From NCBI GenBank assembly GCA_021734065.1, contig JAIPJQ010000002.1:2136-66135 (forward strand): DNA of 64,000 nt, written 5' to 3'. The notes below the pieces were generated by a model. That model worked only from the letters and a program-made list of their open reading frames with translations. It searched no databases and was not told the origin of the DNA. The translations under genes were made by a program, and so were the position numbers. The DNA comes from Fidelibacterota bacterium (GTDB taxonomy: Bacteria; Fidelibacterota; UBA8477). Positions 3,823 through 62,844 of this stretch are shown in pieces; the first letter of the stretch is position 1; each line of letters starts with the position of its first letter.

Positions 3823-4311
3823 TTAACCCTTACTCCGCTTGGGTTTGCGGGCATTTTCCAGCTCTCTAAGACGCGTTTTTAACGCGCCAAAACTATCAAA
3901 TATTTCAGTAACACATCCCAGAATCCAGGATGAAATTTTCTCACGGGGAATCTCACTCACCAGATACACCGGAATGTTGTGATAAAAAGCCAGTGTCAGT
4001 TCCCCCTGCGTTCCACCGCCGGCCATTACATATTCATCCCACTTGCAAATCATATAATCCGTGTGAAATAAAATATACTTAAGGTCTTGTTTTATAATAC
4101 GATGCATGACTTCCTGGAAGCGCGGGAAATCGGCATTTTTCCACTGTCGAAATTCCTTCTGCTCCCTTGCGGTTAATACACTGAACTCGTGATGAGTGGG
4201 ATCGTGAACCGTATGGTGCAGCTCATTTTCTAAATACGGACGCAGGCTCTCACGCCATTCCCGACCACCATCCGGGGCTGCTTCCATGGCACCAGCCAGA
4301 TAGACGTTCAT
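3823..4311 (-). CDS. Nucleoside 2-deoxyribosyltransferase-like (YtoQ-like Rossmann) protein
   Basis: 162 aa. N-terminal MNVYLAGAM... and AGGGTQGELTLAF resemble the NDT-like/YtoQ family. Its ATG overlaps the stop of the upstream ABC-2 permease (ATGA). Confidence 0.35.
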   Translation of the reverse strand: MNVYLAGAMEAAPDGGREWRESLRPYLENELHHTVHDPTHHEFSVLTAREQKEFRQWKNADFPRFQEVMHRIIKQDLKYILFHTDYMICKWDEYVMAGGGTQGELTLAFYHNIPVYLVSEIPREKISSWILGCVTEIFDSFGALKTRLRELENARKPKRSKG

Positions 4312-5105
4312 GCCCTGCCTCGGTTGTCGGTAAGCAAATGAACGACACCCACCAACAGCGCAGTCTCAATAAAAGCGATGATTAAAAAAAGATTTTCAAT
4401 GGTACCACGCAGGAACCCGGACTGGGCACCGGCAACCAACGTATGGGTGGGTAGCCAGTACACCAGGGATTCAAAAACCGGCGAATAGCCGGAAATCTCC
4501 CATCCAAGTCCGGAAACCAGAAAAATGGGGAAGATGAAAAAAGTAACCAGACGTCCCAGCAACGGTCCCGGTGGTGTGTACATACCGGCTAAATGCCCCC
4601 AGGCGGCGAATTGAATGGCGGTGAGGAGCATAAAGACCAAAAATGCCTGAATATTGACGTGAATACCGGATGTGCCAGCCAAGAAGATGGTAATGAGCAG
4701 AATGATAATGCCATGCACCAATCCCTTGGTAGCACCCAAGGTGAGTTCTGCCAGCAGTAAACCGGGTTTATTGGGGAAGGCACCCATCAAAATCACCTCG
4801 TCCCACTGCCGATTTCTTCGATTTGTCACATGAAACCAAGCGAGAGAATCAAACGCTGTCAATGCAATGGTGAGAAGAACCAGGCCGGGAATCAGATATG
4901 CCAGATACGGGATGCCATCCATAGTACCCACTATCGCTTGAAACCCTAAACCGAAAAATAGAAAAAAGAGGATGGGTAATAAGAGATTCAGAATCCCTTC
5001 ACTCACCAGATTTCGCCGGTATAATGTGAGCTCCCGCCACCATAACGCCCGAAACGCATTATTCATTGATGATTTGCTCCTGCGACAAGGTGTGGATGAA
5101 TGCAT
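4308..5105 (-). CDS. ABC-2 type transporter permease
   Basis: 265 aa with six predicted transmembrane helices. It overlaps the upstream ATPase gene by 47 nt. Confidence 0.6.
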   Translation of the reverse strand: MHSSTPCRRSKSSMNNAFRALWWRELTLYRRNLVSEGILNLLLPILFFLFFGLGFQAIVGTMDGIPYLAYLIPGLVLLTIALTAFDSLAWFHVTNRRNRQWDEVILMGAFPNKPGLLLAELTLGATKGLVHGIIILLITIFLAGTSGIHVNIQAFLVFMLLTAIQFAAWGHLAGMYTPPGPLLGRLVTFFIFPIFLVSGLGWEISGYSPVFESLVYWLPTHTLVAGAQSGFLRGTIENLFLIIAFIETALLVGVVHLLTDNRGRA

Positions 5106-5991
5106 CGGCTAGCCGGGTCTTTTTGGGCATGAAGGAAATAATATTTTCTGCATCAAAAAGTTGAAGGATTTTACTGGGACTCGTCTGATACCGGGTGACA
5201 ATGGCGTACACATTTTCGTGGCGTGAGAAATCCAGAACCAACTCAGATTTTGTCAATTTCTGATACTCAGCTTCGTTAATTTCGTTTACGCGAGCTTCCA
5301 GGACCTGATTGGGTTGCTGGGCATGCAATACCGCTTCCACAGACCCGTCTACCAGAATATGGCCATGATCCATGATGATTAACCGGTCAGCTACATGTTC
5401 CACCTCGGCCATACTACTGGTGATCATGACAATCGTGAGTCGGGATCGTTGCTCCCGTAGATATTCCCATATGGCCAATGCAGTCTGACGATCCATGGAA
5501 CGGGTCGGCTCATCCAGCAGAAGAATCGACGGGTGCGTCAGCAAGGTACGCATTAGTTGAATCTTACGCTTTATGCCATATGCCAGACCATCTGGAAGCT
5601 GGTGCAATCCGTCCATCAGATTGAATCGCTCTGCGAGCCCTAAAATCCGAGCTTCGGCTTCCTCATCCGAAATACCATGCAATCGGCTATGAAATACGAA
5701 ATTCTCCAACACCGTGAGCTGTTCATCCAAAACAACCTGTTGCCCCATATAACCAATCTGCTGACGGATCTGAATGGGACGGGCGGTAAGATTTTGCCCG
5801 TTCACATATCCGGAACCCTGGGAGGGACGAACCATTGTGGCCATGATTTTGAGGAGAGTGCTTTTCCCGCTACCCGAGGGTCCCACGATGGAAAAAATGG
5901 TCCCATGCTCCACACCGAATGACAGATTATTCACAGCGGTAACCGGACCAAATTTTTTCGTGATATTTCGAAGGGTGATTGAAACTGCCAT
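5059..5991 (-). CDS. ABC transporter ATP-binding protein with degenerate signature and H-loop motifs
   Basis: Walker A GPSGSGKST, Q-loop and Walker B LLLDEPT are intact. The signature motif reads LAYGIK instead of LSGGQ, and the H-loop His is replaced (ITSSM). A C-terminal ~90-aa extension is present. Confidence 0.75.
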   Translation of the reverse strand: MAVSITLRNITKKFGPVTAVNNLSFGVEHGTIFSIVGPSGSGKSTLLKIMATMVRPSQGSGYVNGQNLTARPIQIRQQIGYMGQQVVLDEQLTVLENFVFHSRLHGISDEEAEARILGLAERFNLMDGLHQLPDGLAYGIKRKIQLMRTLLTHPSILLLDEPTRSMDRQTALAIWEYLREQRSRLTIVMITSSMAEVEHVADRLIIMDHGHILVDGSVEAVLHAQQPNQVLEARVNEINEAEYQKLTKSELVLDFSRHENVYAIVTRYQTSPSKILQLFDAENIISFMPKKTRLADAFIHTLSQEQIINE

Positions 5992-6026: not shown

Positions 6027-7055
6027 CTACGCCGGGTCTGAAGTTGACTCAACTTCCGCATCAATTTTTATGCCTAATTCATCAAATGCCACCCAACAAC
6101 GAGTACTCAAACCATTTTCTTGGTCATACGTCATCAGGGGCGGCTCAGCATGCTTACAACGCTCCTCCGCCACGGGACAGCGGGGATGAAATTTACAGCC
6201 TTCCGGAAACTCGGTCGGTACGGGAACAACGCCCTCGATAACTGCGAGACGACTAACCTTTTTCCTGGGATTGGGTATGGATTTTAACAACCCCTGGGTG
6301 TAGGGATGTTTGGGTGATTTAAAAATCGTCCGGATGTCGCCCTCTTCCACGATTTTCCCGGCGTACATAACAATAACCCGCTTGGTCACTTCTGCTATCA
6401 CACCCAGGTCGTGGGTGATGATAATCATCGACATATTGAATTGCTTCTGCAGGCCGGCTATTAATTTCAAAATCTGCGCCTGCACCGTTACATCCAATGC
6501 CGTGGTGGGCTCATCCGCAATCAGCAGTTTTGGGTTACAGGACAATGCCATGGCGATCATGACCCGCTGACGCATACCGCCGGACAACTGGTGGGGATAC
6601 TCATCAATTCGCTGCTCCGGCGCCGGGATTCCCACCAGTTTTAACATTTCAATGGCTCGTTTTTTCGCTTCGGTTTTATCAACATGTTGATGCAACCGAA
6701 TCGCTTCCATGATTTGATCACCACAGGTAAAAACCGGATTCAGCGAGGTCATGGGCTCCTGGAAAATCATGGAAATTTCATTTCCCCGGATCCGGCGCAT
6801 TCTCTCTTCCGGCAATGCGCGCACATCTATACCATCAAAAGTGATTTCTCCGCTGACGATCTCACCCGGTGGAATGGGGATTAGCCGCATGACCGACAGA
6901 GCGGTGACTGATTTACCGCAACCTGATTCCCCTACGATTCCCAATGTTTCACCCTTATCCACATGGAATGTCACATCATCCACCGCTTTGGCCAGTCCCT
7001 CTTCGGTGGAGAAAAAGGTCCTCAGGTTTTTTACATCCAGTAATCGTTCAGCCAA
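6027..7055 (-). CDS. oppD: Oligopeptide/dipeptide ABC transporter ATP-binding protein (OppD/OppF type)
   Basis: Walker A GESGCGKS, signature LSGGMRQR, Walker [13 protein letters not shown]. The C-terminal KHPYTQGLL plus Cys cluster CKFHPRCP...C is typical of the OppD/F C-terminal domain. Confidence 0.8.
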
Positions 7056-7096: not shown

Positions 7097-7921
7097 TTAA
7101 GCCCTTTCTGTCTGCTTGCCCCGTTCCCGGAATGCCTGTACACCCAGGAGAATCACGATAACGGCCAGCAACCAATAGGTCGCGTGATGATATTCAGAGC
7201 CACTGAACTGGATCAGATCGTAAAAGCGTCCAATGAGCAGAGAAATTCGTCCCATCACGGCAAATCCAAAGGCCGCACCAAAGGAGATCATGAGGAACCA
7301 GATTCCCACGCGACTGATTTTCCCGAACATCCCCGTGTGTTCTTTGGAAAAGAAAAAGTAAAACAAACCGGTAAGCGTGCCAATGATGATGAGAATGGAG
7401 TTAATAGCCGTACCCCAGCCGTCGAACAGCGGCAGTGCTGATCCCCGGACCTGGGCCAGAATATTGGAATTCAGGAATCCGTACAACCGGAGCCCGGCGG
7501 CCAGACCCACTACATACGCCATGGACCAGCGCGCCAGCCAACCCAGTTTGCGGGAAAGCCGGAACAGCATGAAAATCCCAAGGATAAATGGAACCATATA
7601 GACCAGATTCATTTCATGACCTTTGTCGATTCCACCCTCCGGGAAAATTCCACTGTGGAACCAACCGAAAAAGTCGTAGATACCATACCAGGCGGCCCTT
7701 AATCCACCCATTTCTCCATCCACTTTCGGCCACAAACGCCCAAACAAATTGGGCTGGATCTGCGTCCAGAAAAATGTACTGGCCCAGTACCCGGCCGAAA
7801 CACCCACAAACAGGTGTTCAGCGGCTTTATAAAATGGATTGTCTTTATAGAGAAAACTGAAAATTGCCAGGGTCAGGAAGACCGCGAACCAGGCACCAAT
7901 AATTTCTGTTGTAAACAACAT
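7097..7921 (-). CDS. Uncharacterised multi-pass membrane protein (about 7 TM helices)
   Basis: 274 aa, strongly hydrophobic, no family recognised. It belongs to the tightly packed block between oppC and oppD. Confidence 0.5.
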   Translation of the reverse strand: MLFTTEIIGAWFAVFLTLAIFSFLYKDNPFYKAAEHLFVGVSAGYWASTFFWTQIQPNLFGRLWPKVDGEMGGLRAAWYGIYDFFGWFHSGIFPEGGIDKGHEMNLVYMVPFILGIFMLFRLSRKLGWLARWSMAYVVGLAAGLRLYGFLNSNILAQVRGSALPLFDGWGTAINSILIIIGTLTGLFYFFFSKEHTGMFGKISRVGIWFLMISFGAAFGFAVMGRISLLIGRFYDLIQFSGSEYHHATYWLLAVIVILLGVQAFRERGKQTERA

Positions 7922-7936: not shown

Positions 7937-8788
7937 TTAATATTTCTTCTGAGAGCGTTTGCGTTCCAGGAAATAGGTAATATTCCCGAAAATAATGAAC
8001 AGCACGATCACCAGATGCGCGATGGACTGGGCATCCATTCCCGAGATTCCCAACCCTGGTTTCCCCACCAACGCTTCATATTCCGCGGCGCCCGGCATGC
8101 CCGCGATAACACCCCGCAACTGGCCTGCATTTTCATAAGGAATAATTTCATTCACCTGAATGGAAGCCGTACCAGTGGTCATGGGCACACCCGTGGGATC
8201 ACTGCCATACTGGACCCATTCCACGGTACCGGGATATCCGGCGGAAAAGCTGAATATCAGGTTAAAATCCTTGAGACTATACACACCTGCCATCATGGGA
8301 ATGGAATCCACCAGTGTATTTTGATAATCCACAGTGTAGAGCTTGCGCAAATTGCTGGCAATGCCCTTCACTACCGCCTCATTCCCGGGACGGAATCCCA
8401 ACAGCACATAATCTTCACCATAAACCGTATCGTACAGCGGCGCAATGGCGTTGAGTGCGTCAATTGCCATGAACTGACCATCGGGCCAGAGACAAACCAC
8501 GTAGACCTTGATACCTTTCAAAAAGGCATGGTGCAACACCGCTTCGGCCATGGGGTGAATTTCCGGTTTTGTACTGGGGCCGTATTCAAATGACATTAAC
8601 AACCGGTCACCCGCCTGCAATGAATCAACCGCATTGAATGAGCGTTGCGTCGTCTCCGTCGCCCGAATGGGTAAGCCCAAGGGTTTGAGAAGCGGAATGA
8701 GCACCACAATAGCGATGAGCAGGAAAATGACCCGGCGATCCACTTTCCCCAGTTTAATCAGAATTGTAATGAATTTATTTTTATCCAT
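7937..8788 (-). CDS. Uncharacterised membrane-anchored protein (N-terminal and C-terminal TM helices flanking a ~230-aa domain)
   Basis: The track ORF 7937..8824 begins at a TTG. The ATG at 8788 (MDKNKFITIL...) lies 4 nt after the upstream stop and is the preferred start. No family recognised. Confidence 0.5.
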   Translation of the reverse strand: MDKNKFITILIKLGKVDRRVIFLLIAIVVLIPLLKPLGLPIRATETTQRSFNAVDSLQAGDRLLMSFEYGPSTKPEIHPMAEAVLHHAFLKGIKVYVVCLWPDGQFMAIDALNAIAPLYDTVYGEDYVLLGFRPGNEAVVKGIASNLRKLYTVDYQNTLVDSIPMMAGVYSLKDFNLIFSFSAGYPGTVEWVQYGSDPTGVPMTTGTASIQVNEIIPYENAGQLRGVIAGMPGAAEYEALVGKPGLGISGMDAQSIAHLVIVLFIIFGNITYFLERKRSQKKY

Positions 8789-8792
8789 GGTC

Positions 8793-9815
8793 TTATTCCC
8801 CCATGAATGATTTTTCGATTCCAAGAATGATCCGCAAACTGGTGCCGATCATTCCCAACGCAATCCCAATCATGATCGCCCTTGCACCGGCGATATTGGG
8901 CACAGTATAAATCCACTCCTGCAGTACCGGCAGAAAGAGAAATCCCGGCTTGTCCACCGGCCAACCCGTCAGCGCGCCGGCAACAGTGACAATCAGAACA
9001 CCCGCGCCGACTACCGCGAAGGTGGTCATCTTGTTTTGCCACACGATGTTGGCACCAACACCAGCCGCCAGCACGATGAGATAGGCAATGAACCAGGCTG
9101 AGATATTGGAGCCGATAGGTACGCGTCCCAGCATGATAATGATTCCGGACAATAGCAGAAGTGTTGCTTCAAAATTCCGGATACGAAATGCGCGGTATGA
9201 TGCTGAAGCCACAAAAAATGCCAGCAACGCAAACATGGTGGCCGACATGGGTGTAAACAGGTATTTGAATAACCAATTAAATACGGTTCCCTCCGCTAGT
9301 AAGTGCTCACCCCAGGATTTTTCGCGCAGTTCAACCTGAACACCGGCTGCTTTCAACTTGCTGGCATACTCCTCCGCTCCCTTGGCGCTGATGAAAATGT
9401 GGCGCACATCGTAGGTATCACTGATTTCCAGCATGGGTGTGACTTGATCAATGGTCAACTGCTCCATCTCCGCCACCACCGGCGCGACCTGTTGGATATT
9501 GGCGCTTACATCCTGAATATGGACATAATTGGCGCCCTTCCAGAAAAAGCCGGCAGTGATTGCGAAGAAAAATCCCACCACCGCCAGAATGCTGTACTGC
9601 CAATCCTTCTTCTGCCTGATGATTTTGGTCATTTGCAGTTTTAATAAATTCAGTGCACCCAAAATAATGGCAAAGCTGGCGATAATGTCAAACCACTGGG
9701 TGGCGTCATCATTCACAAACCCCTCAAAGGTCGGTGAATCCACAAACCAGCCATACAGGGTGAGTATGCCTGTGATAAAAACAATCGCGATGGGAACTTG
9801 TCGTTTCCAGAACAT
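8793..9815 (-). CDS. Uncharacterised multi-pass membrane protein with a central soluble domain
   Basis: Start moved to the ATG at 9815 (MFWKRQV...), which is preceded by GGAGTAGGAGG 7 nt upstream. Its stop overlaps the start region of the next gene. Confidence 0.5.
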   Translation of the reverse strand: MFWKRQVPIAIVFITGILTLYGWFVDSPTFEGFVNDDATQWFDIIASFAIILGALNLLKLQMTKIIRQKKDWQYSILAVVGFFFAITAGFFWKGANYVHIQDVSANIQQVAPVVAEMEQLTIDQVTPMLEISDTYDVRHIFISAKGAEEYASKLKAAGVQVELREKSWGEHLLAEGTVFNWLFKYLFTPMSATMFALLAFFVASASYRAFRIRNFEATLLLLSGIIIMLGRVPIGSNISAWFIAYLIVLAAGVGANIVWQNKMTTFAVVGAGVLIVTVAGALTGWPVDKPGFLFLPVLQEWIYTVPNIAGARAIMIGIALGMIGTSLRIILGIEKSFMGE

Positions 9816-9823
9816 AACGCCTC

Positions 9824-10702
9824 CTACTCCACCCTTAGCCATTCTTTAAAATCAATGTCAATCCAGCCCAGATCGTGGACACCATTCAGAATAAAAACTA
9901 GCAAAATGGCAATCATGACGATGAATTTGCCCATGTCCTGCCCCTTCACGCTCCCCAACAAAGCCGGCTTTTGCGACAGGTAGGCAGATGCTGTTAAAAA
10001 TTCCTCACCGATCAGCGTGTAATCACAGGCCGTCACGAAAAATGGTATCTGGGAAGGTGATGCAGTCCCCGCAATCTGGATCGCACCAATGCTGTTTCCG
10101 GTCTCCGCCAGGATCAGTGACTCCGCATAAAATTTCCCCTGATAAAAACAGGCCGCCGGCTTCTCTCGCAACATGATGCCGTCCACACCGGCGGCATAGG
10201 CGAACTGCTCATCTGTGAGGTAATGAACCATATCGTCATTAAACAGGTCGGGCCGGCCCACCGACAGGTAGGATTCCTTCACAATTTCACGACCCGCTTC
10301 CATCACGATGGATCTGGACACCGGAACATTGAGATTGGTCTCATAGGTAGCGGTCATTTTGGCCACATGTCCCAGAATAATGACACCGGCGACGGTTTCC
10401 ACCTGATCCATATCCATAATACCCGGGACATACAGTACCGGCTTGCCCATTTCGGTCGCCCGACCGACGGCTTCATCAAAAGCTTTCAATCCCGGAATGA
10501 TTCTCAGATAGATTTTTTCACCACTATTGGCCCGGGCGATGTAATACAGAATGGTAATGGATAACGCCATGACGCACACGAACATGGTCAGCCGGTTACC
10601 ATTAAAATAGGGATGCCCAAACGCGTAATAGATAATGAACAGTACCGCGAAGATTCCGGCACCCATTAAGATTGCTTTTCCTGATTTCATACACCCTCCC
10701 AT
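9824..10702 (-). CDS. Uncharacterised membrane protein (2 N-terminal TM helices, ~200-aa soluble domain, 1 C-terminal TM helix)
   Basis: 292 aa, no recognisable family. Co-directional with, and adjacent to, the other membrane genes. Confidence 0.5.
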   Translation of the reverse strand: MGGCMKSGKAILMGAGIFAVLFIIYYAFGHPYFNGNRLTMFVCVMALSITILYYIARANSGEKIYLRIIPGLKAFDEAVGRATEMGKPVLYVPGIMDMDQVETVAGVIILGHVAKMTATYETNLNVPVSRSIVMEAGREIVKESYLSVGRPDLFNDDMVHYLTDEQFAYAAGVDGIMLREKPAACFYQGKFYAESLILAETGNSIGAIQIAGTASPSQIPFFVTACDYTLIGEEFLTASAYLSQKPALLGSVKGQDMGKFIVMIAILLVFILNGVHDLGWIDIDFKEWLRVE

Positions 10703-10765: not shown

Positions 10766-11122
10766 TTACCGAACTTGCGTTCCGGTGCTGGATGATTGAC
10801 GCTCCGGAGTTTTCGGAGTGCCCGTATCCTGGATCTTTTTTTTTTCTTCTTCAAGGCGCTCAATCTCTGCTACCAGCACTTCCACATTGTGGTAGTCTTC
10901 CAGCAGCTCGGTGAGCTCGTAGTAGGTTTCCGCCCGCACAAAGGCGGTGAGAATGGGGCCGAAAAAAACCATGGTCTGGCTGCCGATAAACGCAAGCGGT
11001 TTCATCATTTCCAATGCCAAAACGGCTGGTACGGTCATCCCCCGCATCACGATTTTCTCGGCGATCCGGGTTAAGATAGCCGGATCCGGCGCTTTTAATG
11101 GTTTTTCGTTAAATCCCAGCAT
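10766..11122 (-). CDS. Small hypothetical membrane-associated protein
   Basis: 118 aa with a hydrophobic core and a Lys/Glu-rich tail. It contains an A10 run (plus-strand T10 at 10836..10845). Confidence 0.4.
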   Translation of the reverse strand: MLGFNEKPLKAPDPAILTRIAEKIVMRGMTVPAVLALEMMKPLAFIGSQTMVFFGPILTAFVRAETYYELTELLEDYHNVEVLVAEIERLEEEKKKIQDTGTPKTPERQSSSTGTQVR

Positions 11123-11133
11123 GTTGAAATTTT

Positions 11134-12261
11134 TCAGTCGGTTTCCACCATCTCCAAGTTAGCCCGTGGAACCGTTTTTACATCCCCATTTTCAAATTCA
11201 ATAACCGCCACACGCACCATGGTCTCCGATTCCATTTTCTGCAATTCCGGAGGCAACTCCTTCACATGCCCCAATTTTCCAAAATAGGGCGCCCGAATAA
11301 CGCGCACCAGCGAATCTTCCCCCATTCCGGCGGACATGTCATGCTGCTTTTCCGATTCGGCGGTTTCAGCCGGGAGTGTAATGACAATTTCCGGCCGAAT
11401 CACACCCGCCCGAATTTGCGTAGCGCCATTGAGTGAGGCAAAATGCCCATCATGAGATTTTAGCAGCTCAAAGGTGCGTCGCGCCATATTCACTTTCCCA
11501 AAACCCTCGGTGACCACCATTGTCGTGGCAAGATCTTCCGACCCGGTGATTGCCACACCCAATGTGTAGCCCAGGATTTCCTTCAGCTGATTATAGTCAA
11601 ATCCACCTGTAACGATGCCCGCTATACCAAGACTGACGGCCTTTCGGTAAGCCTCCAGGGAAACATAATTTCCACCCACAAGGATCTTTCCTTTGTACTC
11701 CGGCTTAATGTCATCCGGCTTCAACTCCTCTTTCCGGTCTGAAACCAGCAACTTCAGTTCACCGCGCGTCTCACCACCAATCCCAAAAATCCCCTGGATC
11801 AGGGCTGCTTTGGATTCAATAATAACACCCTCTTCCGGAAGCACTTCACGGACGACACCTGAAATGTACGCGTCCACCTCGACCGGGATGGGAGCCTCAC
11901 GAATTACCACCTGTCCGGTAGTACTGGAAATTTGCTCAATTGTACCATCGGTGGGCGAATCTACTTTGGACTTGAACAAGCCGAATATGCCGGCACTCTC
12001 AGCCAGCATCTCGCCCTGTTTGATCGTATCCCCGGCGGATTTTTTCATCATTTCAGGCACTTCGGACGCTTCAACGTTGAGCAAATTGGCAACATTGACC
12101 ATCTGCACATTTCCAGGCAGATTGGTGGAACACACAATGCTTTCCGGTTTGACCTCCACACCTTTCTCCACCGTAACCTTCCCCTTCAGGGGCAGGATTC
12201 GCGGCTTTCTTATCGTGGTGGCGTGTAAAACTTTTAATCCGGGCGTATACGCGTGTGCCAT
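11134..12261 (-). CDS. Hypothetical protein, partner of the GlmL-like ATPase
   Basis: 375 aa. Its ATG overlaps the upstream stop by 1 nt (TAATG). No family recognised. Confidence 0.5.
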   Translation of the reverse strand: MAHAYTPGLKVLHATTIRKPRILPLKGKVTVEKGVEVKPESIVCSTNLPGNVQMVNVANLLNVEASEVPEMMKKSAGDTIKQGEMLAESAGIFGLFKSKVDSPTDGTIEQISSTTGQVVIREAPIPVEVDAYISGVVREVLPEEGVIIESKAALIQGIFGIGGETRGELKLLVSDRKEELKPDDIKPEYKGKILVGGNYVSLEAYRKAVSLGIAGIVTGGFDYNQLKEILGYTLGVAITGSEDLATTMVVTEGFGKVNMARRTFELLKSHDGHFASLNGATQIRAGVIRPEIVITLPAETAESEKQHDMSAGMGEDSLVRVIRAPYFGKLGHVKELPPELQKMESETMVRVAVIEFENGDVKTVPRANLEMVETD

Positions 12262-14105
12262 TATTCGCCCTCACTTTCCGGATATTCGTTCATGGCTGTG
12301 GACCACTGATTCAATTTCTTGATACGCTCATCATGATTTTCAGGTAGTGAAAAAGGTTGACGACCGCGGGTGTCGAAGATCAGCCCCACCACACCGCCGT
12401 ACAAGTCCATTTCAATAGGTGTTCCTTTCCCTTTACCAAGATCAAGGTGTTTGTCCGGGATTAATTCCGCTTTGGTGATCTCATGGGGCGCTTCAATGAC
12501 TTCCAGAGTGCCGGGTAAATACTCTTTCTCCACCGTTGCACCATCCGGCAGAGTGAGTTTGGCCACCAGCGCCGGTTTTCCGGCCTTCATCTTCCCCACC
12601 GGTGCGATGCAGGTTCCCAATCGAATCAAACAATCTTTCTCGAACACTTCCAGCGCTGCCTTTTCGGCACTCTCACGAATGTCTGGTTTGTCCACATTGG
12701 CCAGTACGCCAAGCTGAGGCATCATGAAAATGGAATCCACCGCCAGTTGGGTAATTCCCTCCGGCAAGAACGCGTCAATCATCATTTTGGCGGATTGAGA
12801 CCGTCTGGGTGCGTGGGACAAGACACCGCCGGAACCCACCAACAAGTCCAGCTCCATCATATCCACCAATGTTTCACCCGAGCCGGACTGTTCGAACGCA
12901 TCTGAGATGGTGCGCTCCGTCTGGATACCTTTCAGGCTCACAGCAAAGGATTTATGCTGAATGAAGCTGAGTCGTAATGCCTCCCGGGCCAGCGCCTGCT
13001 CAATTTTCAATTCCTCCAGCGACTGCGGGATGGTGGTGGGCCGAATCATCTTATTGGCGATTCGATTGGCCAATTCCTTCTCGTCAATATCAAAGGACAC
13101 CCAGCGAATCACATTCTCAATTGTTGCTTCAGCCAGAACATTGGTGATGGAATAACTCATCCCCAGATTGGCTGAAACGGTGCGGTTAAATGTCTTTTTA
13201 AATACGGAAAAAACATCCGTGGTAGCGCCGCCGATATCCACGCCCACAACAGAGATATTATCCCGTTTGGCGATCATCTCAATTAACGCACCCACCGCTC
13301 CGGGCGTGGGCATGATTGGAGCATCGGTCCAGGTCATGAGTTTTTTATACCCCGGTGCCTGGGCCATCACATGCTCCATAAACAGGTCGTGGATTTTATC
13401 ACGGGAAGGGGTGAGATTTTCACGCTCCAGAACCGGACGAATATTTTCCACCACCGTGAGATCGGTGATGTCTCCCAGTGTTTCACGGATATTGTCCTGG
13501 GCTTTGTTGTTCCCGGCATAGATCACCGGCAGTTTATAACTGCTTCCCAGACGCGGTTTGGGTTTGGCTGCTTTCAGAATTTCAGCCAATTCCACCACGT
13601 GGCTGATGGTACCACCGTCGATACCACCTGACAGTAAAATCATATCCGGACGCAATTGACGGATGCGCTCAATCTTCTGGTGCGGAAGGCGGCCATCATT
13701 GGACGCCAGCACATCCATCACAATGGACCCGGCCCCCAAAGCAGCCCGCTGAGCACTCTCTCCGGTCATGGATTTCACCACACCGGCGACCATCATTTGC
13801 AATCCACCACCGGCAGACGACGTTGAGACATAGACGTCCACACCTTTGGGTTTACCTGCGCTGTCCTTCTCCGGTCTCAGAATGGTATCACCGTCCAGAA
13901 TCAAGCGCCCGGAAAGCTCTTCCACCTCACGTACGGCATTCAGTACACCCCGGGTTACATCTTCAAAAGGAGCCTCCACGGTAGTCGGAGCCTCACCGCG
14001 AGCAGTGAGACGGTATCCTTCGTCGGTCATTTCGATTAGGATGGCTTTGGTTGTGGTGGAGCCACAATCCGTTGCCAGTATTGATTTTAGTGTTATCTCA
14101 GACAT
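12261..14105 (-). CDS. ASKHA-superfamily ATPase resembling glutamate mutase subunit L (GlmL/MutL family)
   Basis: 614 aa. Phosphate-1 ATDCGSTTTKAIL, adenosine/connect motif LLSGGIDGGT and phosphate-2 GVDIGGATTDVF match the GlmL-like architecture. Confidence 0.55.
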   Translation of the reverse strand: MSEITLKSILATDCGSTTTKAILIEMTDEGYRLTARGEAPTTVEAPFEDVTRGVLNAVREVEELSGRLILDGDTILRPEKDSAGKPKGVDVYVSTSSAGGGLQMMVAGVVKSMTGESAQRAALGAGSIVMDVLASNDGRLPHQKIERIRQLRPDMILLSGGIDGGTISHVVELAEILKAAKPKPRLGSSYKLPVIYAGNNKAQDNIRETLGDITDLTVVENIRPVLERENLTPSRDKIHDLFMEHVMAQAPGYKKLMTWTDAPIMPTPGAVGALIEMIAKRDNISVVGVDIGGATTDVFSVFKKTFNRTVSANLGMSYSITNVLAEATIENVIRWVSFDIDEKELANRIANKMIRPTTIPQSLEELKIEQALAREALRLSFIQHKSFAVSLKGIQTERTISDAFEQSGSGETLVDMMELDLLVGSGGVLSHAPRRSQSAKMMIDAFLPEGITQLAVDSIFMMPQLGVLANVDKPDIRESAEKAALEVFEKDCLIRLGTCIAPVGKMKAGKPALVAKLTLPDGATVEKEYLPGTLEVIEAPHEITKAELIPDKHLDLGKGKGTPIEMDLYGGVVGLIFDTRGRQPFSLPENHDERIKKLNQWSTAMNEYPESEGE

Positions 14106-14132: not shown

Positions 14133-15167
14133 TTATTGCTTCAACCGCGGGTCTAGTGCATCACGCAATCCTTCACCCACCAGATTATAGACCGTTACCG
14201 TAATAAAAATCGCCAAACCCGGAAATGTGGTGAGCCACCATCCGCTGGGCAACATGTCCCGGGCACTGGATAACAACGACCCCCAGGTAGCCTGCTCCGG
14301 TGGCGCTCCAAATCCCAAAAAGCTCAGTCCCGACTCGATTAATATCGCCGCTGCCACACCAAATGTTGCCGTTACCAGCACCGGTGTGAGAGTGTTGGGA
14401 AGGACATGCCGAAAAATCGTCCGGAAATCGCTAAATCCCAAAGCCTTTGCAGCGGTGACATAGTCCTCGTTCTTCACCTTGAGGAATTCACCACGGGTAA
14501 ACCGGGCCACGCCGGTCCAGCCGGTCAGTCCTAAAATAATCATAATATTCACGATGGATTGCGTCTGCACCACCGCCACGATGGTAATGATGAGAAACAT
14601 GCGCGGGAAGGTGATCATCACCTCAATTAAGCGTTGGATGATGACATCCACCCAGCCGCCATAAAAACCGGCCAGCGCCCCCAGTATCATGCCAATTATG
14701 ACATAGATTGTTACGGCCACAAATCCCACCAATAGCGAAACCCGTGAGCCGTGAATCAGCTGTGATAACACATCCCGACCCAGTTCATCTGTGCCACACA
14801 GGTGAGTGGAATTGGGTGGTGACAATTTTCGCTTCAAATCATAGTCGTTGGGTCCGAAGGGAATTACCGGCCAGACTGCCCAGTCCCCTTCTTCAAATTT
14901 ATTCGTCAACAACTTCCACTGCTGTGTTTTGAAATCATCCTGCCACTGCATCCCAAGCCATTCCACACCATACTCACGCAGGACCGGCGCGTAATAGTCA
15001 CCTTTATACTTCATAATCAAAGGTTTGTCGTTGGCCAGGAAGTCAGCGAAGATGAATATAAACAGGAGCACATAGATCACATGCAGACTGTATAGCGCCA
15101 GTTTGTTGCGGCTGAATTGACGCTTGACGATATCCAGGTAGGAACGGGATTTCTTCTGCTGTTTCAT
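14133..15167 (-). CDS. oppC: Peptide ABC transporter permease (OppC/DppC type)
   Basis: 344 aa. Has an N-terminal extension before TM1 and the conserved permease segment ESGLSFLGFGAPPEQATWGSLL. Confidence 0.8.
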   Translation of the reverse strand: MKQQKKSRSYLDIVKRQFSRNKLALYSLHVIYVLLFIFIFADFLANDKPLIMKYKGDYYAPVLREYGVEWLGMQWQDDFKTQQWKLLTNKFEEGDWAVWPVIPFGPNDYDLKRKLSPPNSTHLCGTDELGRDVLSQLIHGSRVSLLVGFVAVTIYVIIGMILGALAGFYGGWVDVIIQRLIEVMITFPRMFLIITIVAVVQTQSIVNIMIILGLTGWTGVARFTRGEFLKVKNEDYVTAAKALGFSDFRTIFRHVLPNTLTPVLVTATFGVAAAILIESGLSFLGFGAPPEQATWGSLLSSARDMLPSGWWLTTFPGLAIFITVTVYNLVGEGLRDALDPRLKQ

Positions 15168-16552
15168 TACCGGTTCCCCTCGAATGTGATGCGGGGATCC
15201 ACCAACGCATACAGGATATCAGATATTAAAATCCCTGCCAGGGTCAGAATTGCACTGAGAGTGGATACAGCCATAATGATGGGATAATCGCGATACAGGA
15301 CGGCATTGAATGCCAGCTGACCGATACCGGGAATGGAGAAAATGCTTTCAATAATGATGGACCCGGAAATAGCCAATGGCAACAGATTGGCCAGCATGGT
15401 GATGATGGGAATCAATGAATTACGCAGCGCGTGTTTATACACCACAATCTTTTCCGATAAGCCTTTCGCCCGGGCGGTACGAATATAGTCCTGACGGATC
15501 ACCTCCAGCATGGAACCCCGCATATACCGGGATAATGCTGAAAAACTACCGTATGTCCAAATGATCAGGGGCAGGATAATGTGGTGCAACATATCCAGCA
15601 GATATCCTCCGCGCCCCATGTGCTCTGAACCAACACTGTGGAGCCCGGAGACAGGAAACCAATCCAGAAAGTCGCCACCGCCAAAGAAGACGATGGCCAT
15701 GGTGGCTACCCAAAAGTTGGGGAGGGAGTATAAAATAAACAGAATCACAGTGGTGACCTTATCCCCCAGTGTGTACTGGTGTGTGGCGGAGTAAATTCCC
15801 AGCGGAATGGCTACCAGATAAGCAATAATGAACGAGGTGAGTGTGAAAATCAGCGAGACCGGCACAGTCTCTTTGAAATGCTCCCAGACCGGCCGGTTAT
15901 CCTTGATGGAATTTCCGAAATCAAGCCGGATCATGCGCCCCAGCCACCGTGGGTATTGGGCGTCCGTGAGTATCATGGTGATTTTTTTCAGCGTGGAAAA
16001 TTGGTAGTTGGATTCATCGCCCGGCTGGAATACACCACTGGAATCCGTCTCACCATAATACCACTTGTTCACATAACTTCTGGAGGCTGCCAGTGTCATT
16101 TCCGGTGTGATGGAAAGTTTCTGCTTCAGGGTCAACACTTCCAGAATCGCACGCTGTTCCACCTCCGTCAGATCCTGGTTGATGAGTTGGTCAACCAAAA
16201 ACGGTACCGCCACATCATCAGCCTGTTTCAGCGGCTCCAGCGCATCGTCCCATTCTCTGGAATTCTGGTCCGGATTGGTGACGAGAAACTGGCGCACATC
16301 ATCCCAATCCGATTCATACATGAATACCTTGAAATTCAAGAGAACCGGTTTGTCCAGTCCATAGATTTCGCGAGTCTGTTCCACCACCTGCTTGGCCAGA
16401 TTCTGGTCGGATGCCAACCCGGTCTGCTGGCTGCCCATCTTGAATGCCGTAGGATCGCCGGGCGCCATTTTAATGATGATAAAAATGATAATAGAGATGC
16501 CAAAAATGGTGGGGAAAATGAGCAGAATGCGTTTGAGGATGTAATTAATCAA
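15167..16552 (-). CDS. oppB: Peptide ABC transporter permease (OppB/DppB type) with a large periplasmic insertion
   Basis: 461 aa. N-terminus MINYILKRILLIFPTIFGISIIIFIIIKMAPGDPT. Carries a ~190-aa insertion after TM1. Confidence 0.8.
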   Translation of the reverse strand: MINYILKRILLIFPTIFGISIIIFIIIKMAPGDPTAFKMGSQQTGLASDQNLAKQVVEQTREIYGLDKPVLLNFKVFMYESDWDDVRQFLVTNPDQNSREWDDALEPLKQADDVAVPFLVDQLINQDLTEVEQRAILEVLTLKQKLSITPEMTLAASRSYVNKWYYGETDSSGVFQPGDESNYQFSTLKKITMILTDAQYPRWLGRMIRLDFGNSIKDNRPVWEHFKETVPVSLIFTLTSFIIAYLVAIPLGIYSATHQYTLGDKVTTVILFILYSLPNFWVATMAIVFFGGGDFLDWFPVSGLHSVGSEHMGRGGYLLDMLHHIILPLIIWTYGSFSALSRYMRGSMLEVIRQDYIRTARAKGLSEKIVVYKHALRNSLIPIITMLANLLPLAISGSIIIESIFSIPGIGQLAFNAVLYRDYPIIMAVSTLSAILTLAGILISDILYALVDPRITFEGNR

Positions 16553-16612: not shown

Positions 16613-18466
16613 TCATGGCGCCATCCCCACTTGTGCTTCATTCGAACTCCGCCACCAGCTCACATTATTATACCCGGGACGTATGGGAATCCATTTTACA
16701 TCCTTAAATGCCCTATCATAAGCTCCGGGATCCCGCTGGTAGAACATGAAGGTGTAAGGCTGTTCCTCGTGGAGAATTTCCTGAAAGCGCCGATACATGC
16801 TGTCCCGCTTTGCTGCATTCATCTCATACCGGGCCGCCATGATCAACGAATCGGCTTCCGCATCCCTGAAGCCGATATAATTTGAACCCCGGTTCCCAAT
16901 GTTTTCCGAATGCCAGATCTGATAAGGATCAGACTGGAGCCCGCCAATCCAAAGCAGCATCACACAATCAAACTGCCGGTCACGGAGATTTTCAACATAA
17001 ACCGACCATTCCAACTGGCGGATTCCCACGACAATACCGATTTTCTGTAAATCTTCCTTCATCATGAGCGCCAGTAGCTTGGAGCCGCGGGAGCCGGCTG
17101 ATACGGAAAATATGAATTTGAAGGGAACACCGTCCTTATCACGAATACCGTCTCCGTCATGGTCAGTCCAACCGGCTTCGTCCAGTAATTCAACTGCCCG
17201 CTCAGGATCATAGGGCCAACGGGGAATTGTATCATTGTACTGCGGACTGAAGGGATAGAAGGGACCGATGGTGGGAATACCCAGATCATAGCCGATGTAC
17301 TTGTTGTAGGCATCCCGGTCGATGAGCATGGTCATGGCCTGTCGTACCCGCTTATCCCGGAAATAGGGCCGGTCATTATTCCACCCCACGTAACTGTAGG
17401 CCGGCACCACAAAGGTGACCTTCTGGAATTTCTGTAGAAAATCGGGTGTATTCGTCTGCTCGAAATACTGGATCGCCCGCATCCGTGGCAGAAAATCCAC
17501 ATCTCCTGCTTTCAATGCCGTGAGCATGGCAGTTGCATCACTGATGGACTTCACGATAATGGTATCCAGATATCCTGCTGCTTCGGCAAATCCGGGAATA
17601 TGGGGTTTCTCCGTGTTCCAGTAGTTTTTATTGCGGACCATCATCATGTACTCACCGGTAATCCAACGGTGAAATTTGTAGGCACCGCTTCCGATCAACT
17701 TCTCCGCATCCATTCCCGCCGGCCGATTCAACGGATTGGTATTGAAGGTGTCTGCCCACTCTTTGATGTCTGATTCATTGGTAAATACTTGCGGGTTTTT
17801 CAGGTCTTCGATACCGAACCGGTCCAGCATCCCGTCAGGGTCCCACTGGTGCTTGGGTAGTATCGCAAATCCGCCCATAAACTCAAGGTTCAGGAAGTAG
17901 GTGTCAGATGTGCGGATGATGAAGGTGTACTTATCCGGGGTTCTGGCTTCCACCACATTTCTGTAGTAGGCACGTAACGGCGCGTCATCAACATAAGGAT
18001 TCATAATCGCCTTCAGGGAAAAAAGAACATCTTCAGACGTAAGCGGTTTCCCATCATGCCAGGTGATATTCTCGTGGAGATGGAAGGTGTATGTTTTTTG
18101 GTCTTCGGAAATCTCGAAACTTTTTGCCAAAATGGGCCGATCATATTCCCAGGTGGTGTAATCGTAATTTACCAGCGGTTCATAGATATAATCTAAAAAT
18201 CGCTTGGCTGCTGCTGAAGTGGATGTGTAATAATTCAAATTTTCCGGTTCAGCAGACTCCGCCTTGATCAACGTCCCTCCCCGGCGTGGCGTTTCATCCG
18301 TTGGTGAGGAATTGAAGATTTTCACATCACCGGTGAGATCGACCTTCAAACCACCAGCTTGCCCTAAGATTTCATCATAATTACCGGGAGATTCCGTATG
18401 GATGAGATTGGTGAATAAAATCAGCAGTAACAGAACAGCGAGTTGTATCAGGATTGAGCGCTTCAT
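16613..18466 (-). CDS. oppA: ABC transporter substrate-binding protein, family 5 (OppA-like)
   Basis: 617 aa. Signal peptide MKRSILIQLAVLLLLILF. Size and position upstream of oppBC fit an OppA-type binding protein. Confidence 0.75.
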   Translation of the reverse strand: MKRSILIQLAVLLLLILFTNLIHTESPGNYDEILGQAGGLKVDLTGDVKIFNSSPTDETPRRGGTLIKAESAEPENLNYYTSTSAAAKRFLDYIYEPLVNYDYTTWEYDRPILAKSFEISEDQKTYTFHLHENITWHDGKPLTSEDVLFSLKAIMNPYVDDAPLRAYYRNVVEARTPDKYTFIIRTSDTYFLNLEFMGGFAILPKHQWDPDGMLDRFGIEDLKNPQVFTNESDIKEWADTFNTNPLNRPAGMDAEKLIGSGAYKFHRWITGEYMMMVRNKNYWNTEKPHIPGFAEAAGYLDTIIVKSISDATAMLTALKAGDVDFLPRMRAIQYFEQTNTPDFLQKFQKVTFVVPAYSYVGWNNDRPYFRDKRVRQAMTMLIDRDAYNKYIGYDLGIPTIGPFYPFSPQYNDTIPRWPYDPERAVELLDEAGWTDHDGDGIRDKDGVPFKFIFSVSAGSRGSKLLALMMKEDLQKIGIVVGIRQLEWSVYVENLRDRQFDCVMLLWIGGLQSDPYQIWHSENIGNRGSNYIGFRDAEADSLIMAARYEMNAAKRDSMYRRFQEILHEEQPYTFMFYQRDPGAYDRAFKDVKWIPIRPGYNNVSWWRSSNEAQVGMAP

Positions 18467-62820: not shown

Positions 62821-62844
62821 AACCGGGTCACACTTTCGTGGTCC

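What the first reader, a model, noticed from the sequence alone, without database searches (positions are those of the whole stretch)
12261..14105. 614-aa ASKHA ATPase of the glutamate-mutase-L (GlmL/MutL-like) type with all three nucleotide-binding motifs, in a transporter context
Phosphate-1 (ATDCGSTTTKAIL), connect/adenosine (LLSGGIDGGT) and phosphate-2 (GVDIGGATTDVF) motifs are intact, so it is probably an active ATPase. It is about 150 aa longer than clostridial GlmL, and no glutamate mutase catalytic subunits (GlmE/GlmS) are nearby. GlmL-like proteins outside glutamate fermentation are essentially uncharacterised. Here it is translationally coupled to a 375-aa partner and lies upstream of membrane proteins. 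This could point to an actin-like or chaperone-like role for a membrane complex.
Basis: partly seen in the sequence, partly recalled or inferred. Interest (0 to 1): 0.55.

Follow-up and report, generated by a model that had tools for sequence, protein, structure and literature searches.

The report
GlmL-like ATPase in conserved membrane module
The gene is a real, probably active ATPase related to the glutamate-mutase helper GlmL. It has nothing to do with glutamate mutase here: with an obligatory partner protein it belongs to an undescribed seven-gene, membrane-associated module found in many mostly uncultured bacterial phyla.

Summary
The ORF is real: window 14105..12261, MINUS strand, 614 aa, in a Ca. 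Marinimicrobia MAG. It scores 418 bits on Pfam MutL/GlmL (PF13941) but falls below every curated GlmL cut-off. It is 28-31% identical to true GlmL and carries an extra conserved ~140-aa C-terminal beta domain. No glmE or mal gene occurs in the window or in 164 related loci, and only one locus has a GlmS-like B12 domain. The 375-aa partner overlaps it by one base (TAATG). The two are fused into one polypeptide in 44 of the 150 best family representatives. Across at least nine named phyla the pair sits in a conserved set: small protein p118, GlmL-like ATPase, partner, DUF6754, and three membrane proteins with no Pfam family. The four membrane genes can be tandemly duplicated beside a single ATPase pair. 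Opp-type ABC genes join the set in three phyla in three different arrangements. My best reading (confidence about 0.4) is that ATPase plus partner form the cytoplasmic ATP-driven unit of an undescribed membrane complex. The main rival is a soluble hydantoinase-like enzyme with its own uptake system. No literature on the module was found. Its function remains inferred.

The parts
12261..14105 (-). GlmL-like ASKHA ATPase, long form, 614 aa. It comprises an ASKHA core with an inserted alpha/beta domain (aa ~90-220) and an extra C-terminal beta domain plus helix (aa ~474-604).
   Evidence: PF13941 at 418 bits. It falls below the NCBIfam GlmL cut-offs. AF2 model pLDDT 82, pTM 0.82. Foldseek places it in the ASKHA fold. 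Motifs are conserved in 48 diverse representatives.
11134..12261 (-). Obligatory partner 'p375', 375 aa. It has an N-terminal barrel-sandwich-hybrid (RnfC_N/biotinyl-like) region, a small alpha/beta domain, and a C-terminal KOW/SH3-like domain. No TM segment is predicted.
   Evidence: One-base overlap with the ATPase gene. Fused to the ATPase in 44 of 150 representatives. Present in 63 of 80 genome loci. AF2 pLDDT 81.6. Foldseek finds KOW and sandwich-barrel hits only. Relatives pass the Pfam RnfC_N and Biotin_lipoyl cut-offs.
10766..11122 (-). Small protein 'p118', 118 aa, with a conserved moderately hydrophobic 35-aa segment. It may tether or adapt the ATPase.
   Evidence: Family found in 47 of 82 loci plus the window, usually just upstream of the ATPase outside Marinimicrobia. 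A p118-like domain is fused to the N-terminus of the ATPase in representative P0277. No Pfam hit.
9824..10702 (-). DUF6754 membrane protein, 292 aa: two N-terminal TM segments, a ~190-aa highly conserved domain predicted to be cytoplasmic, and a C-terminal TM. In other phyla the N-terminus is a signal peptide plus an fn3-like periplasmic domain.
   Evidence: PF20539 at 388 bits. TM prediction. Sequences from other phyla. Weak fn3 hit. 50-70% identity across phyla.
8793..9842 (-). Polytopic membrane protein 'm349', with no family assignment. The Marinimicrobia version carries a ~125-aa insertion; elsewhere the protein is about 210-225 aa.
   Evidence: Conserved position after DUF6754. No Pfam, NCBIfam or PDB match. 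Weak sub-threshold TMD0_ABC hits in 12 of 26 members.
7937..8824 (-). Bitopic membrane protein 'm295': N-terminal TM, a ~210-aa domain predicted to be periplasmic, and a C-terminal TM. No family assignment.
   Evidence: Conserved third position of the membrane set. TM prediction and charge distribution. No Pfam or PDB match.
7097..7921 (-). Polytopic membrane protein 'm274' (~5-6 TM). Strongly conserved motifs FSFLYKDNPxYKxAEH and YFFFSKEHxG...FGASFGYTVMxRxSLLIGR. No family assignment.
   Evidence: Conserved fourth position of the membrane set. Alignment A8. No Pfam or PDB match.
16613..18466 (-). Family-5 (Opp/Dpp-type) ABC substrate-binding protein, 617 aa. It is an associated gene, not a universal part of the module.
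   Evidence: PF00496 in the syntenic locus L001. Recurrent next to the module in Marinimicrobia and Latescibacteria, more divergent in Eisenbacteria.
15167..16552 (-). OppB-like ABC permease, long variant (461 aa).
   Evidence: BPD_transp_1. Aligns end to end at 39% identity with the module-linked 433-aa OppB of Latescibacteria.
14133..15167 (-). OppC-like ABC permease, 344 aa. It ends 27 nt upstream of the ATPase gene.
   Evidence: PF00528 and OppC_N. NF045476 Opp4C at 317 bits, below its cut-off of 350.
6027..7055 (-). OppD-like ABC ATPase, 342 aa, starting 41 nt downstream of m274.
   Evidence: ABC_tran plus oligo_HPY. An OppD-like gene follows m274 also in L013, L041, L045, L054, L055, L057 and L065.

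Best explanation
The 614-aa protein is a long-form member of the GlmL/MutL branch of ASKHA ATPases. With its partner p375 it forms one functional ATPase unit.

In this genome, and in a large clade of bacteria, I propose that this unit is the cytoplasmic, ATP-driven component of a so far undescribed inner-membrane complex. The complex would be built from DUF6754, m349, m295 and m274, with the small protein p118 as adaptor or tether.

Proposed working: the pair docks on the conserved cytoplasmic domain of DUF6754. ATP binding and hydrolysis in the ASKHA cleft drive a domain closure, as in Hsp70 or the B12-enzyme reactivases. That movement is passed to the membrane subunits. Their periplasmic parts (the m295 domain, and the fn3-like domain of DUF6754 in other phyla) then act on a substrate or structure in the envelope. 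Given the recurrent Opp link, a role in uptake or handling of peptides is the most likely theme.

Shown: family membership, intact motifs, partner fusion, conserved gene set, topology predictions.
Inferred: the physical docking, the direction of energy flow, and the substrate.
For: 1. Intact, conserved ATP-binding motifs. D13/G15/T17-19/K20, D290/G292-G293/T295-T296/D297 and S425/G426/G427 are invariant in a 19-sequence alignment spanning several phyla and are shared with true GlmL.

2. Rosetta-stone fusions. 44 of the best 150 family representatives are fusions of GlmL-like protein and p375, 900-1190 aa long. One representative has a p118-like domain fused N-terminally, and one carries an N-terminal TM anchor.

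3. Conserved synteny. In 80 species-representative genome loci, p375 accompanies the ATPase in 63 and all four membrane genes in 36. Among the 37 loci with at least 8 kb on both sides, the figures are 31 and 23. The taxa include Marinimicrobia, Eisenbacteria, WOR-3, Ignavibacteriales, Calditrichota, Zixibacteria, Latescibacteria, Elusimicrobia and Nitrospira, plus one MAG labelled Bacillota.

4. The four membrane genes always keep the order DUF6754-m349-m295-m274. They are tandemly duplicated two or three times next to a single ATPase pair. This pattern resembles shared energising modules.

5. Even fused ATPase-partner genes sit next to the membrane set in L095 and L111.

6. In the window the genes are packed with overlaps or gaps of at most 63 nt, and no convincing intergenic terminator is found.

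7. The only function proposed for a family member (GlmL/MutL) is a chaperone-like action on a protein client (PMC4682846). The long form shares all family-specific motifs with it.

8. The partner's barrel-sandwich domain is of the RnfC_N/NqrA_N type. By my own knowledge of the Rnf and Nqr complexes, that domain type heads the peripheral cytoplasmic subunits of those membrane complexes.
Against: - No interaction is shown; gene order is the only link to the membrane proteins.
- In 5 of 37 full-flank loci the pair occurs without membrane genes within 8-10 kb, and in 6 loci the ATPase has no partner nearby.
- More distant fusion proteins are solitary, with unrelated neighbours. Some carry an N-terminal XRE or GntR helix-turn-helix or a zinc ribbon. 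So the pair can work without the membrane set.
- The closest solved structures are ATP-dependent enzymes (N-methylhydantoinase, acetone and acetophenone carboxylase, caprolactamase), not motors.
- The reactivase role of GlmL is itself only an analogy to diol dehydratase reactivase.
- I know of no precedent for a transporter or envelope machine powered by an ASKHA ATPase.
Confidence: 0.4

Rival explanations
1. The ATPase plus partner is a soluble ATP-dependent enzyme of the hydantoinase / oxoprolinase / acetone-carboxylase kind. It would activate a small amide, lactam or carbonyl compound, or a peptide. The four membrane proteins, and the Opp system where present, would simply import that substrate.
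For: The top Foldseek hits to solved structures are N-methylhydantoinase 9h03, acetophenone carboxylase 5l9w, acetone carboxylase 5m45/5svc and caprolactamase 6yra (E 3e-10 to 1e-6), ahead of Hsp70 and FtsA. There are weak Hydantoinase_A and Hydant_A_N hits. Those enzymes also need a second subunit (own knowledge). The pair occurs alone in many genomes. Opp genes are adjacent in three phyla.
Against: Hydantoinase_A scores 21.8 bits against 418 for MutL, and it is below its own cut-off. TM-scores to those enzymes are only 0.25-0.35. p375 shows no similarity to HyuB-type partners. All family-specific motifs are shared with GlmL, whose proposed client is a protein. Three copies of the membrane set beside one enzyme would be unusual for a catabolic operon. 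No further catabolic genes are conserved nearby.
Confidence: 0.2
2. The pair is a nucleotide-dependent sensor or regulatory switch. Its output differs by lineage: gating or regulating a membrane complex here, and DNA binding where it is fused to a helix-turn-helix domain.
For: Fusion proteins carry N-terminal XRE-type or GntR-type HTH domains or zinc ribbons (P0330, P0353, P0285, P0323, P0333, P0359, and the 1014-aa ORF in L092). ROK-type regulators are a precedent for ASKHA domains joined to HTH domains (own knowledge).
Against: Most family members have no DNA-binding domain. The window protein has none. A regulator would not normally be among the most conserved proteins of its operon, yet the ATPase is 63-77% identical across phyla.
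Confidence: 0.12
3. It is an actin-like, filament-forming ASKHA protein. p118 and DUF6754 anchor it to the membrane, and it organises an envelope complex in space.
For: The ASKHA fold has FtsA and MreB among its structural neighbours. It lies in a membrane-protein context, and there is a possible small tether protein, p118.
Against: FtsA, MreB and similar proteins rank behind the hydantoinase-type enzymes and Hsp70. The protein carries two large extra domains and a 1:1 fused partner, which known bacterial actins do not have. GlmL relatives are not known to polymerise (own knowledge). No polymerisation interface can be tested here.
Confidence: 0.08
4. It is a true B12-enzyme reactivase, as GlmL is thought to be, serving a cobalamin-dependent mutase encoded elsewhere in the genome.
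For: It belongs to the same Pfam family as GlmL and shares its motifs. One solitary fusion gene (L088) lies 4 kb from a protein with a GlmS-like B12-binding domain.
Against: There are no GlmE or Mal hits, and only that single GlmS-like hit, in the window plus 164 loci, about 2 Mb of flanks. The protein falls below all curated GlmL and Or-4 cut-offs. Its conserved neighbours are membrane proteins, not mutases.
Confidence: 0.05

Closest known systems
GlmL / MutL, the accessory protein of coenzyme-B12-dependent glutamate (methylaspartate) mutase (PF13941; NF040745; TIGR01319)
   Same: Same Pfam family (418 bits). 28-31% identity over aa ~5-470. Shared phosphate-1, SSAGGGL, PDxxLLxGGxDGG, phosphate-2 (DxGGATTDV) and GSGG motifs.
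   Different: Below all curated cut-offs: 229 against 475, 210 against 600, and 167 against 204 bits. It is ~150 aa longer, with a conserved C-terminal beta domain that includes an invariant D578 in a DxRGRP motif. It is never next to glmS, glmE or mal. It always travels with p375, which true glm operons lack.
Reactivating factors of B12 enzymes (diol/glycerol dehydratase reactivase DdrAB/GdrAB, EutA)
   Same: These are ASKHA ATPases that act on a protein client together with a second subunit. This is the mechanistic paradigm invoked for GlmL (PMC4682846).
   Different: No B12 enzyme is in the neighbourhood. These reactivases are not among the top 50 structural hits. The partner p375 has a different architecture: barrel-sandwich hybrid plus alpha/beta domain plus KOW.
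ATPase subunits of the hydantoinase / oxoprolinase / acetone carboxylase / caprolactamase family (Hydantoinase_A, PF01968)
   Same: These are the best solved structural neighbours (E 3e-10 to 1e-6). They are multi-domain ASKHA proteins of similar size that work with a second subunit.
   Different: The sequence signal is marginal (21.8 bits, below the cut-off of 22.9). TM-scores are 0.25-0.35. No HyuB-like partner is present, and no catabolic context is conserved.
Membrane-associated ASKHA proteins of envelope machines (FtsA, PilM, MreB) and Hsp70
   Same: They share the fold, nucleotide-driven domain closure, and action at or on membrane complexes. They appear in the Foldseek list.
   Different: No specific sequence relationship. 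The inserted domains differ. There is no evidence of polymerisation or of a peptide-binding domain.
RnfC / NqrA N-terminal barrel-sandwich-hybrid domains
   Same: The partner family reaches the Pfam cut-off for RnfC_N in several members: 42.3, 35.8 and 26.6 bits against 25.6. RnfC and NqrA are peripheral cytoplasmic subunits of membrane complexes (own knowledge).
   Different: Only this one domain is shared. There are no flavin, NADH or Fe-S domains, and the membrane partners are unrelated to Rnf or Nqr subunits.

Membership tests
Pfam MutL (PF13941), the GlmL/MutL family | Profile score above the gathering threshold (27 bits) over the full model | tested here: met
   418 bits, E 6e-125, aa 9-473 against profile positions 1-439 of 450.
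GlmL proper (NCBIfam NF040745 equivalog, methylaspartate mutase accessory protein) | Score at or above the equivalog cut-off (475 bits) | tested here: not met
   228.6 bits.
GlmL proper | Encoded between or next to glmS and glmE, usually with mal | tested here: not met
   True GlmL loci L165 and L166 show glmS-glmL-glmE-mal. tblastn with those GlmS, GlmE and Mal proteins gives nothing in the window, and one GlmS-like hit in 164 related loci. The rest of the genome could not be searched.
GlmL proper | Size of ~460 aa with no C-terminal extension | tested here: not met
   614 aa. True GlmL proteins are 461-462 aa and align to aa ~5-470 only.
TIGR01319 glmL_fam (subfamily model) | Score at or above 204 bits | tested here: not met
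   167.1 bits.
NF040744 GlmL-related ornithine degradation protein Or-4 | Score at or above 600 bits | tested here: not met
   210.2 bits.
ASKHA ATPase superfamily | Phosphate-1, phosphate-2 and adenosine motifs in canonical order, and the two-lobed actin-like fold | tested here: met
   DCGSTTTK at aa 13-20, DIGGATTD at aa 290-297, VGSGGVL at aa 423-429. AF2 model pTM 0.82, with 317 PDB matches at E <= 0.001; the top 50 listed are all ASKHA proteins.
ASKHA ATPase superfamily | ATP hydrolysis or phosphotransfer activity | not testable with these tools
   Only motif conservation speaks for activity.
Hydantoinase_A / oxoprolinase family (PF01968) | Profile score above the gathering threshold (22.9 bits) | tested here: not met
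   21.8 bits on a 46-residue stretch around phosphate-2. Structural similarity is present, but with TM-scores of 0.25-0.35.
Actin-like filament formers (MreB, ParM, FtsA, MamK) | Nucleotide-dependent polymerisation | not testable with these tools
   Only general fold similarity.
B12-enzyme reactivases (functional class) | Genetic linkage to an adenosylcobalamin-dependent enzyme | tested here: not met
   None in the window. One possible case (L088) among 164 loci.
Opp/Dpp-type ABC transporter operon | The ATPase pair and membrane set are constant companions of SBP5-OppB-OppC-OppD | tested here: not met
   Opp-type genes are adjacent in 13 of 80 genome loci plus the window (L023 excluded, weak hits only), in three phyla and three arrangements. 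They are absent near the module in Nitrospira, Ignavibacteriales, WOR-3, Zixibacteria and Elusimicrobia.
Known anti-phage defence systems (PADLOC) | Any of the seven proteins matches a defence-system model | tested here: not met
   No hits at E <= 0.01.

The most novel reading that the evidence does not exclude
The seven-gene set (p118, GlmL-like ATPase, barrel-sandwich partner, DUF6754, m349, m295, m274) encodes a new class of inner-membrane machine. Its energy source would be an ASKHA-fold ATPase rather than an ABC, P-type, AAA+ or rotary ATPase: either a primary transporter or an envelope-remodelling device. It is widespread in FCB-group candidate phyla, Nitrospirota, Elusimicrobiota and others. 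In some lineages it would be coupled to a special long-OppB peptide ABC importer.
Probability: 0.3. Interest if true: 0.85.

Novelty: new variant of a known kind. Interest (0 to 1): 0.62.

Why it matters
GlmL/MutL proteins are annotated everywhere as 'glutamate mutase L' or even 'methylaspartate mutase'. For the whole long-form clade, hundreds of 50%-identity clusters, that label is misleading. It would wrongly imply B12-dependent glutamate fermentation in metabolic reconstructions of Marinimicrobia, Nitrospira, Latescibacteria and others.

Three of the seven proteins of the module have no family at all, and a fourth is a DUF. Even so, the set is among the better conserved gene clusters in many uncultured phyla, which points to a basic cell-envelope or nutrient-uptake function that model organisms lack.

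If the ATPase pair really energises the membrane complex, it would add a new energy-coupling principle to bacterial membrane biology. The natural fusions, the duplicated membrane sets and the Opp-linked variants give concrete handles for experiments.

Tried and rejected
1. I read the given coordinates on the + strand and found only stops. The gene is on the minus strand.

2. I tested for paralogy between DUF6754 and m295, suspected by eye. hhalign gives probability 1.7%, so I rejected it. No pair among the nine neighbourhood families compared is detectably related.

3. I asked whether p375 is a lipoyl or biotinyl carrier. The hairpin lacks the modified-lysine motif (inspection). I treat it as an unmodified barrel-sandwich domain.

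4. Profile searches of p375, m349, m274 and m295 against all PDB sequences gave nothing significant. A single-sequence search with the ATPase gave no PDB relative.

5. Relaxed Pfam scans of many members of m349, m274 and m295 gave only scattered sub-threshold hits.

6. PADLOC gave no defence-system match.

8. The first attempt at a genome scan with the 48-sequence alignment failed for lack of a conserved stretch. It was repeated with 19 sequences.

9. Literature searches for DUF6754, PF13941, GlmL-like, TIGR01319, and ASKHA with barrel-sandwich returned nothing relevant. One early search was swamped by 'g/ml' matches.

10. The neighbourhoods of distant solitary fusion genes show no common theme.

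11. I checked whether second ATPase-partner pairs are degenerate paralogues. In L084 and L117 both copies keep intact motifs, although some distant representatives do have degenerate motifs.


Full report
**What is there**

The finding's coordinates hold a 614-aa ATG-to-stop ORF on the minus strand, 14105..12261. The plus strand is closed in that frame. An identical protein is on record from a Candidatus Marinimicrobia MAG under the name 'glutamate mutase L'.

All three quoted peptides are present. Pfam MutL (PF13941) matches aa 9-473 at 418 bits. The curated NCBIfam models are not reached:
- GlmL equivalog: 229 bits against a cut-off of 475.
- Or-4: 210 against 600.
- TIGR01319: 167 against 204.

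The protein is therefore a member of the GlmL/MutL superfamily but not a GlmL in the curated sense.

**Comparison with true GlmL**

A tblastn search of plasmid records found annotated glmL genes. In Peptoclostridium acidaminophilum and E. coli they are 461-462 aa and lie in glmS-glmL-glmE-mal operons. They are 28-31% identical to the window protein and align only to its aa ~5-470.

The alignment shows that phosphate-1, SSAGGGL, PDxxLLxGGxDGG, phosphate-2 and GSGG are shared by both forms. In the model it lies in an alpha/beta domain inserted into ASKHA domain I. The motif in the canonical adenosine position is LVGSGGVLSHAP, aa 421-433.

The last ~140 residues are an addition. The AF2 model (pLDDT 82, pTM 0.82) folds them with high confidence into a helix, a beta domain (aa 493-578) and a terminal helix. 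D578 is invariant, and G559, G561, G574 and R580 are conserved in at least 90% of 48 diverse representatives.

tblastn with GlmS, GlmE and methylaspartate ammonia-lyase found nothing in the 64-kb window. In 164 related loci it found no GlmE or Mal at all, and a single GlmS-like B12 domain, in L088.

**Structure neighbours**

No PDB chain is related by sequence. By fold (Foldseek, PDB), the best matches are the ATPase subunits of N-methylhydantoinase, acetophenone carboxylase, acetone carboxylase and caprolactamase (E 3e-10 to 1e-6). Hsp70/DnaK, FtsA, Ppx/GppA, MreB and sugar or acid kinases follow. TM-scores are low (0.2-0.35) because the extra domains differ.

At structure level, the nearest solved relatives are hydantoinase-type enzymes. 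This keeps an enzymatic reading alive.

**The partner**

The next gene (12261..11134, 375 aa) starts inside the ATPase stop codon (TAATG), with a GAGGG upstream. It has no TM segment.

Its model (pLDDT 81.6) has three regions: an N-terminal beta-rich region, a small alpha/beta domain and a C-terminal SH3/KOW-like barrel. Foldseek finds only KOW domains, the sandwich-barrel insert of T. maritima NusG and biotinyl domains. Relatives pass the Pfam cut-offs for RnfC_N (up to 42 bits) and Biotin_lipoyl, and show KOW motifs.

The decisive fact is that 44 of the best 150 50%-identity representatives of the ATPase family are single polypeptides of 900-1190 aa. In these, a p375-like region follows the GlmL-like region. 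The two proteins are therefore one functional unit.

**The module**

Transcription on the minus strand runs through these genes, with overlaps or gaps of at most 63 nt:
- family-5 substrate-binding protein
- OppB-like permease
- OppC-like permease
- GlmL-like ATPase
- p375
- p118
- DUF6754
- m349
- m295
- m274
- OppD-like ATPase

A scan of one genome per GTDB species returned 80 loci. The named taxa are Marinimicrobia, Eisenbacteria, WOR-3, Ignavibacteriales, Calditrichota, Zixibacteria, Latescibacteria, Cloacimonadota, Elusimicrobia, Nitrospira/Nitrospinae, Brocadia/Planctomycetota, Poribacteria and others.

tblastn and ORF clustering show a recurrent set: p118, ATPase, p375, DUF6754, m349, m295, m274.
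- p375 is present in 63 of 80 loci.
- All four membrane genes are present in 36 of 80 loci.
- In the 37 loci with at least 8 kb on both sides, the figures are 31 and 23.

Outside Marinimicrobia, p118 precedes the ATPase. In one representative it is fused to the ATPase N-terminus.

The four membrane genes keep their order. They are repeated two or three times beside one ATPase pair in WOR-3, Ignavibacteriales, Zixibacteria and metagenomic loci. A MAG labelled Bacillota (L084) and L117 have two ATPase-partner pairs, both with intact motifs.

m349, m295, m274 and p118 have no Pfam, NCBIfam, PADLOC or PDB relatives. The fourth membrane protein is DUF6754.

Hydropathy and charge distribution place the very conserved DUF6754 domain in the cytoplasm and the m295 domain in the periplasm. 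In other phyla DUF6754 begins with a signal peptide and an fn3-like domain. These topologies are predictions.

**The transporter context**

Opp-type genes adjoin the module in three phyla, in three different arrangements:
- Marinimicrobia: the module is flanked by them, with SBP5, OppB and OppC before the ATPase and, in the window and L013, OppD after m274.
- Latescibacteria: they are inserted between the ATPase and p375, with OppD after m274.
- Eisenbacteria: they follow the module.

The Marinimicrobia and Latescibacteria OppB proteins are an unusual long variant and align end to end. In two Latescibacteria loci only OppD/F-like ATPases remain next to m274.

Elsewhere no ABC genes are nearby: Nitrospira, Ignavibacteriales, WOR-3, Zixibacteria and Elusimicrobia. 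The Opp link is thus real but lineage-restricted. The universal companions are the four membrane proteins.

**Limits of the association**

A metagenome scan seeded with fusion proteins showed fused genes directly beside the membrane set in L095 and L111. More distant fusions are solitary, with unrelated neighbours. Some carry XRE or GntR helix-turn-helix domains or zinc ribbons at the N-terminus. The ATPase-partner unit is therefore the evolutionary core, and it is used in more than one context.

**Interpretation**

I commit, at about 0.4, to the reading that in this genome the pair is the cytoplasmic ATP-driven unit of an undescribed membrane complex. p118 and the DUF6754 cytoplasmic domain are the likely docking points, and peptide uptake or handling is the most likely theme. 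Every step after 'conserved gene set with fusions' is inference.

The rivals, with my confidence in each:
- A soluble hydantoinase-like enzyme with its own uptake system (0.2).
- A nucleotide-dependent sensor or regulator (0.12).
- An actin-like scaffold (0.08).
- A B12 reactivase for a distant mutase (0.05).

The remainder is 'something else'. The chaperone role of GlmL itself rests on analogy to diol dehydratase reactivase (PMC4682846).

**Novelty**

Full-text searches for DUF6754, PF13941, GlmL-like, TIGR01319 and related terms found no description of the long form or of the module.

The protein is a new variant of a known family. The module as a system is undescribed and could be a new kind of machine, but its function is unknown. 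Current database names for this clade ('glutamate mutase L', 'methylaspartate mutase') are misleading.

Noticed in passing
window 15167-16552 (-); L041, L054, L055, L065: The OppB-like permease is 461 aa, about 130-150 aa longer than usual. It aligns end to end (39% identity) with the 433-aa OppB that sits inside the module in Latescibacteria. This long-OppB subfamily seems to travel with the module.
   Followed up: partly
L045 16504-18430; L057 16464-18460: In two Latescibacteria genomes, OppD- and OppF-like ATPase genes directly follow m274 although no Opp permease or binding-protein gene lies within 10 kb.
   Followed up: no
L018, L022, L025, L014, L035, L109, L121, L161: The four-gene membrane set DUF6754-m349-m295-m274 is tandemly repeated two or three times next to a single ATPase-partner pair.
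   Followed up: partly
representatives P0330, P0353, P0285, P0323, P0333, P0359; L092 3084-6128: Some ATPase-partner fusion proteins carry an N-terminal XRE-type or GntR-type helix-turn-helix domain or a zinc ribbon. This suggests a regulatory use of the same unit in other lineages.
   Followed up: partly
window 8793-9842 (-) and alignment A7: 12 of 26 members of the m349 family give weak, sub-threshold hits to Pfam TMD0_ABC (PF24357, best E 6e-4). This may be a compositional effect, or a distant link to ABC-transporter accessory domains.
   Followed up: no
L018, L070, L043, L014, L073: Glycine-cleavage genes (gcvT, gcvH, gcvPA, gcvPB by sequence inspection) lie directly upstream. In L018 and L070 a lipoate-protein-ligase-like gene lies directly downstream of the module, so the module appears inserted into a gcv-lpl cluster.
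   Followed up: no
L022, L025, L051, L121, L141, L159, L161, L163: In Ignavibacteriales, Zixibacteria and Calditrichota-type loci, a ~258-aa protein with a signal peptide and a C-terminal TM sits between the ATPase and p375. In the three genome loci whose downstream genes were inspected (L022, L025, L051), tolQ/tolR/tolB/pal-like genes follow.
   Followed up: no
L088 1189-3321 (-): A 710-aa ORF whose C-terminus resembles the B12-binding GlmS domain (31% identity) lies about 4 kb from a solitary ATPase-partner fusion gene. It is the only B12-type neighbour seen in 164 loci.
   Followed up: no
representatives P0249 and P0243: Two representatives have large N-terminal additions to the GlmL-like region: a Peptidase_M1 domain (1332 aa) and bacterial TSP3 repeats (1304 aa). 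They may be real fusions or gene-call run-ons.
   Followed up: no
L084 5923-13001; L117 7974-14830: Two consecutive ATPase-partner pairs occur: a ~635-aa ATPase with a 450-460-aa partner, then a ~605-614-aa ATPase with a 373-390-aa partner. Both have intact ATP-binding motifs. L084 comes from a MAG labelled Bacillota.
   Followed up: partly
window 29632-29731 (-): Bacterial small SRP RNA (RF00169, 67 bits). No tRNA genes occur anywhere in the 64 kb.
   Followed up: no
window 62001-64000: G+C drops to 0.434, against about 0.50 in the rest of the window.
   Followed up: no
window 4308-5991 (-): A second, unrelated ABC system lies directly downstream: a DrrA-like ATPase plus an ABC-2-like permease. 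It is syntenic in other Marinimicrobia (L001, L004) even where OppD is missing.
   Followed up: partly
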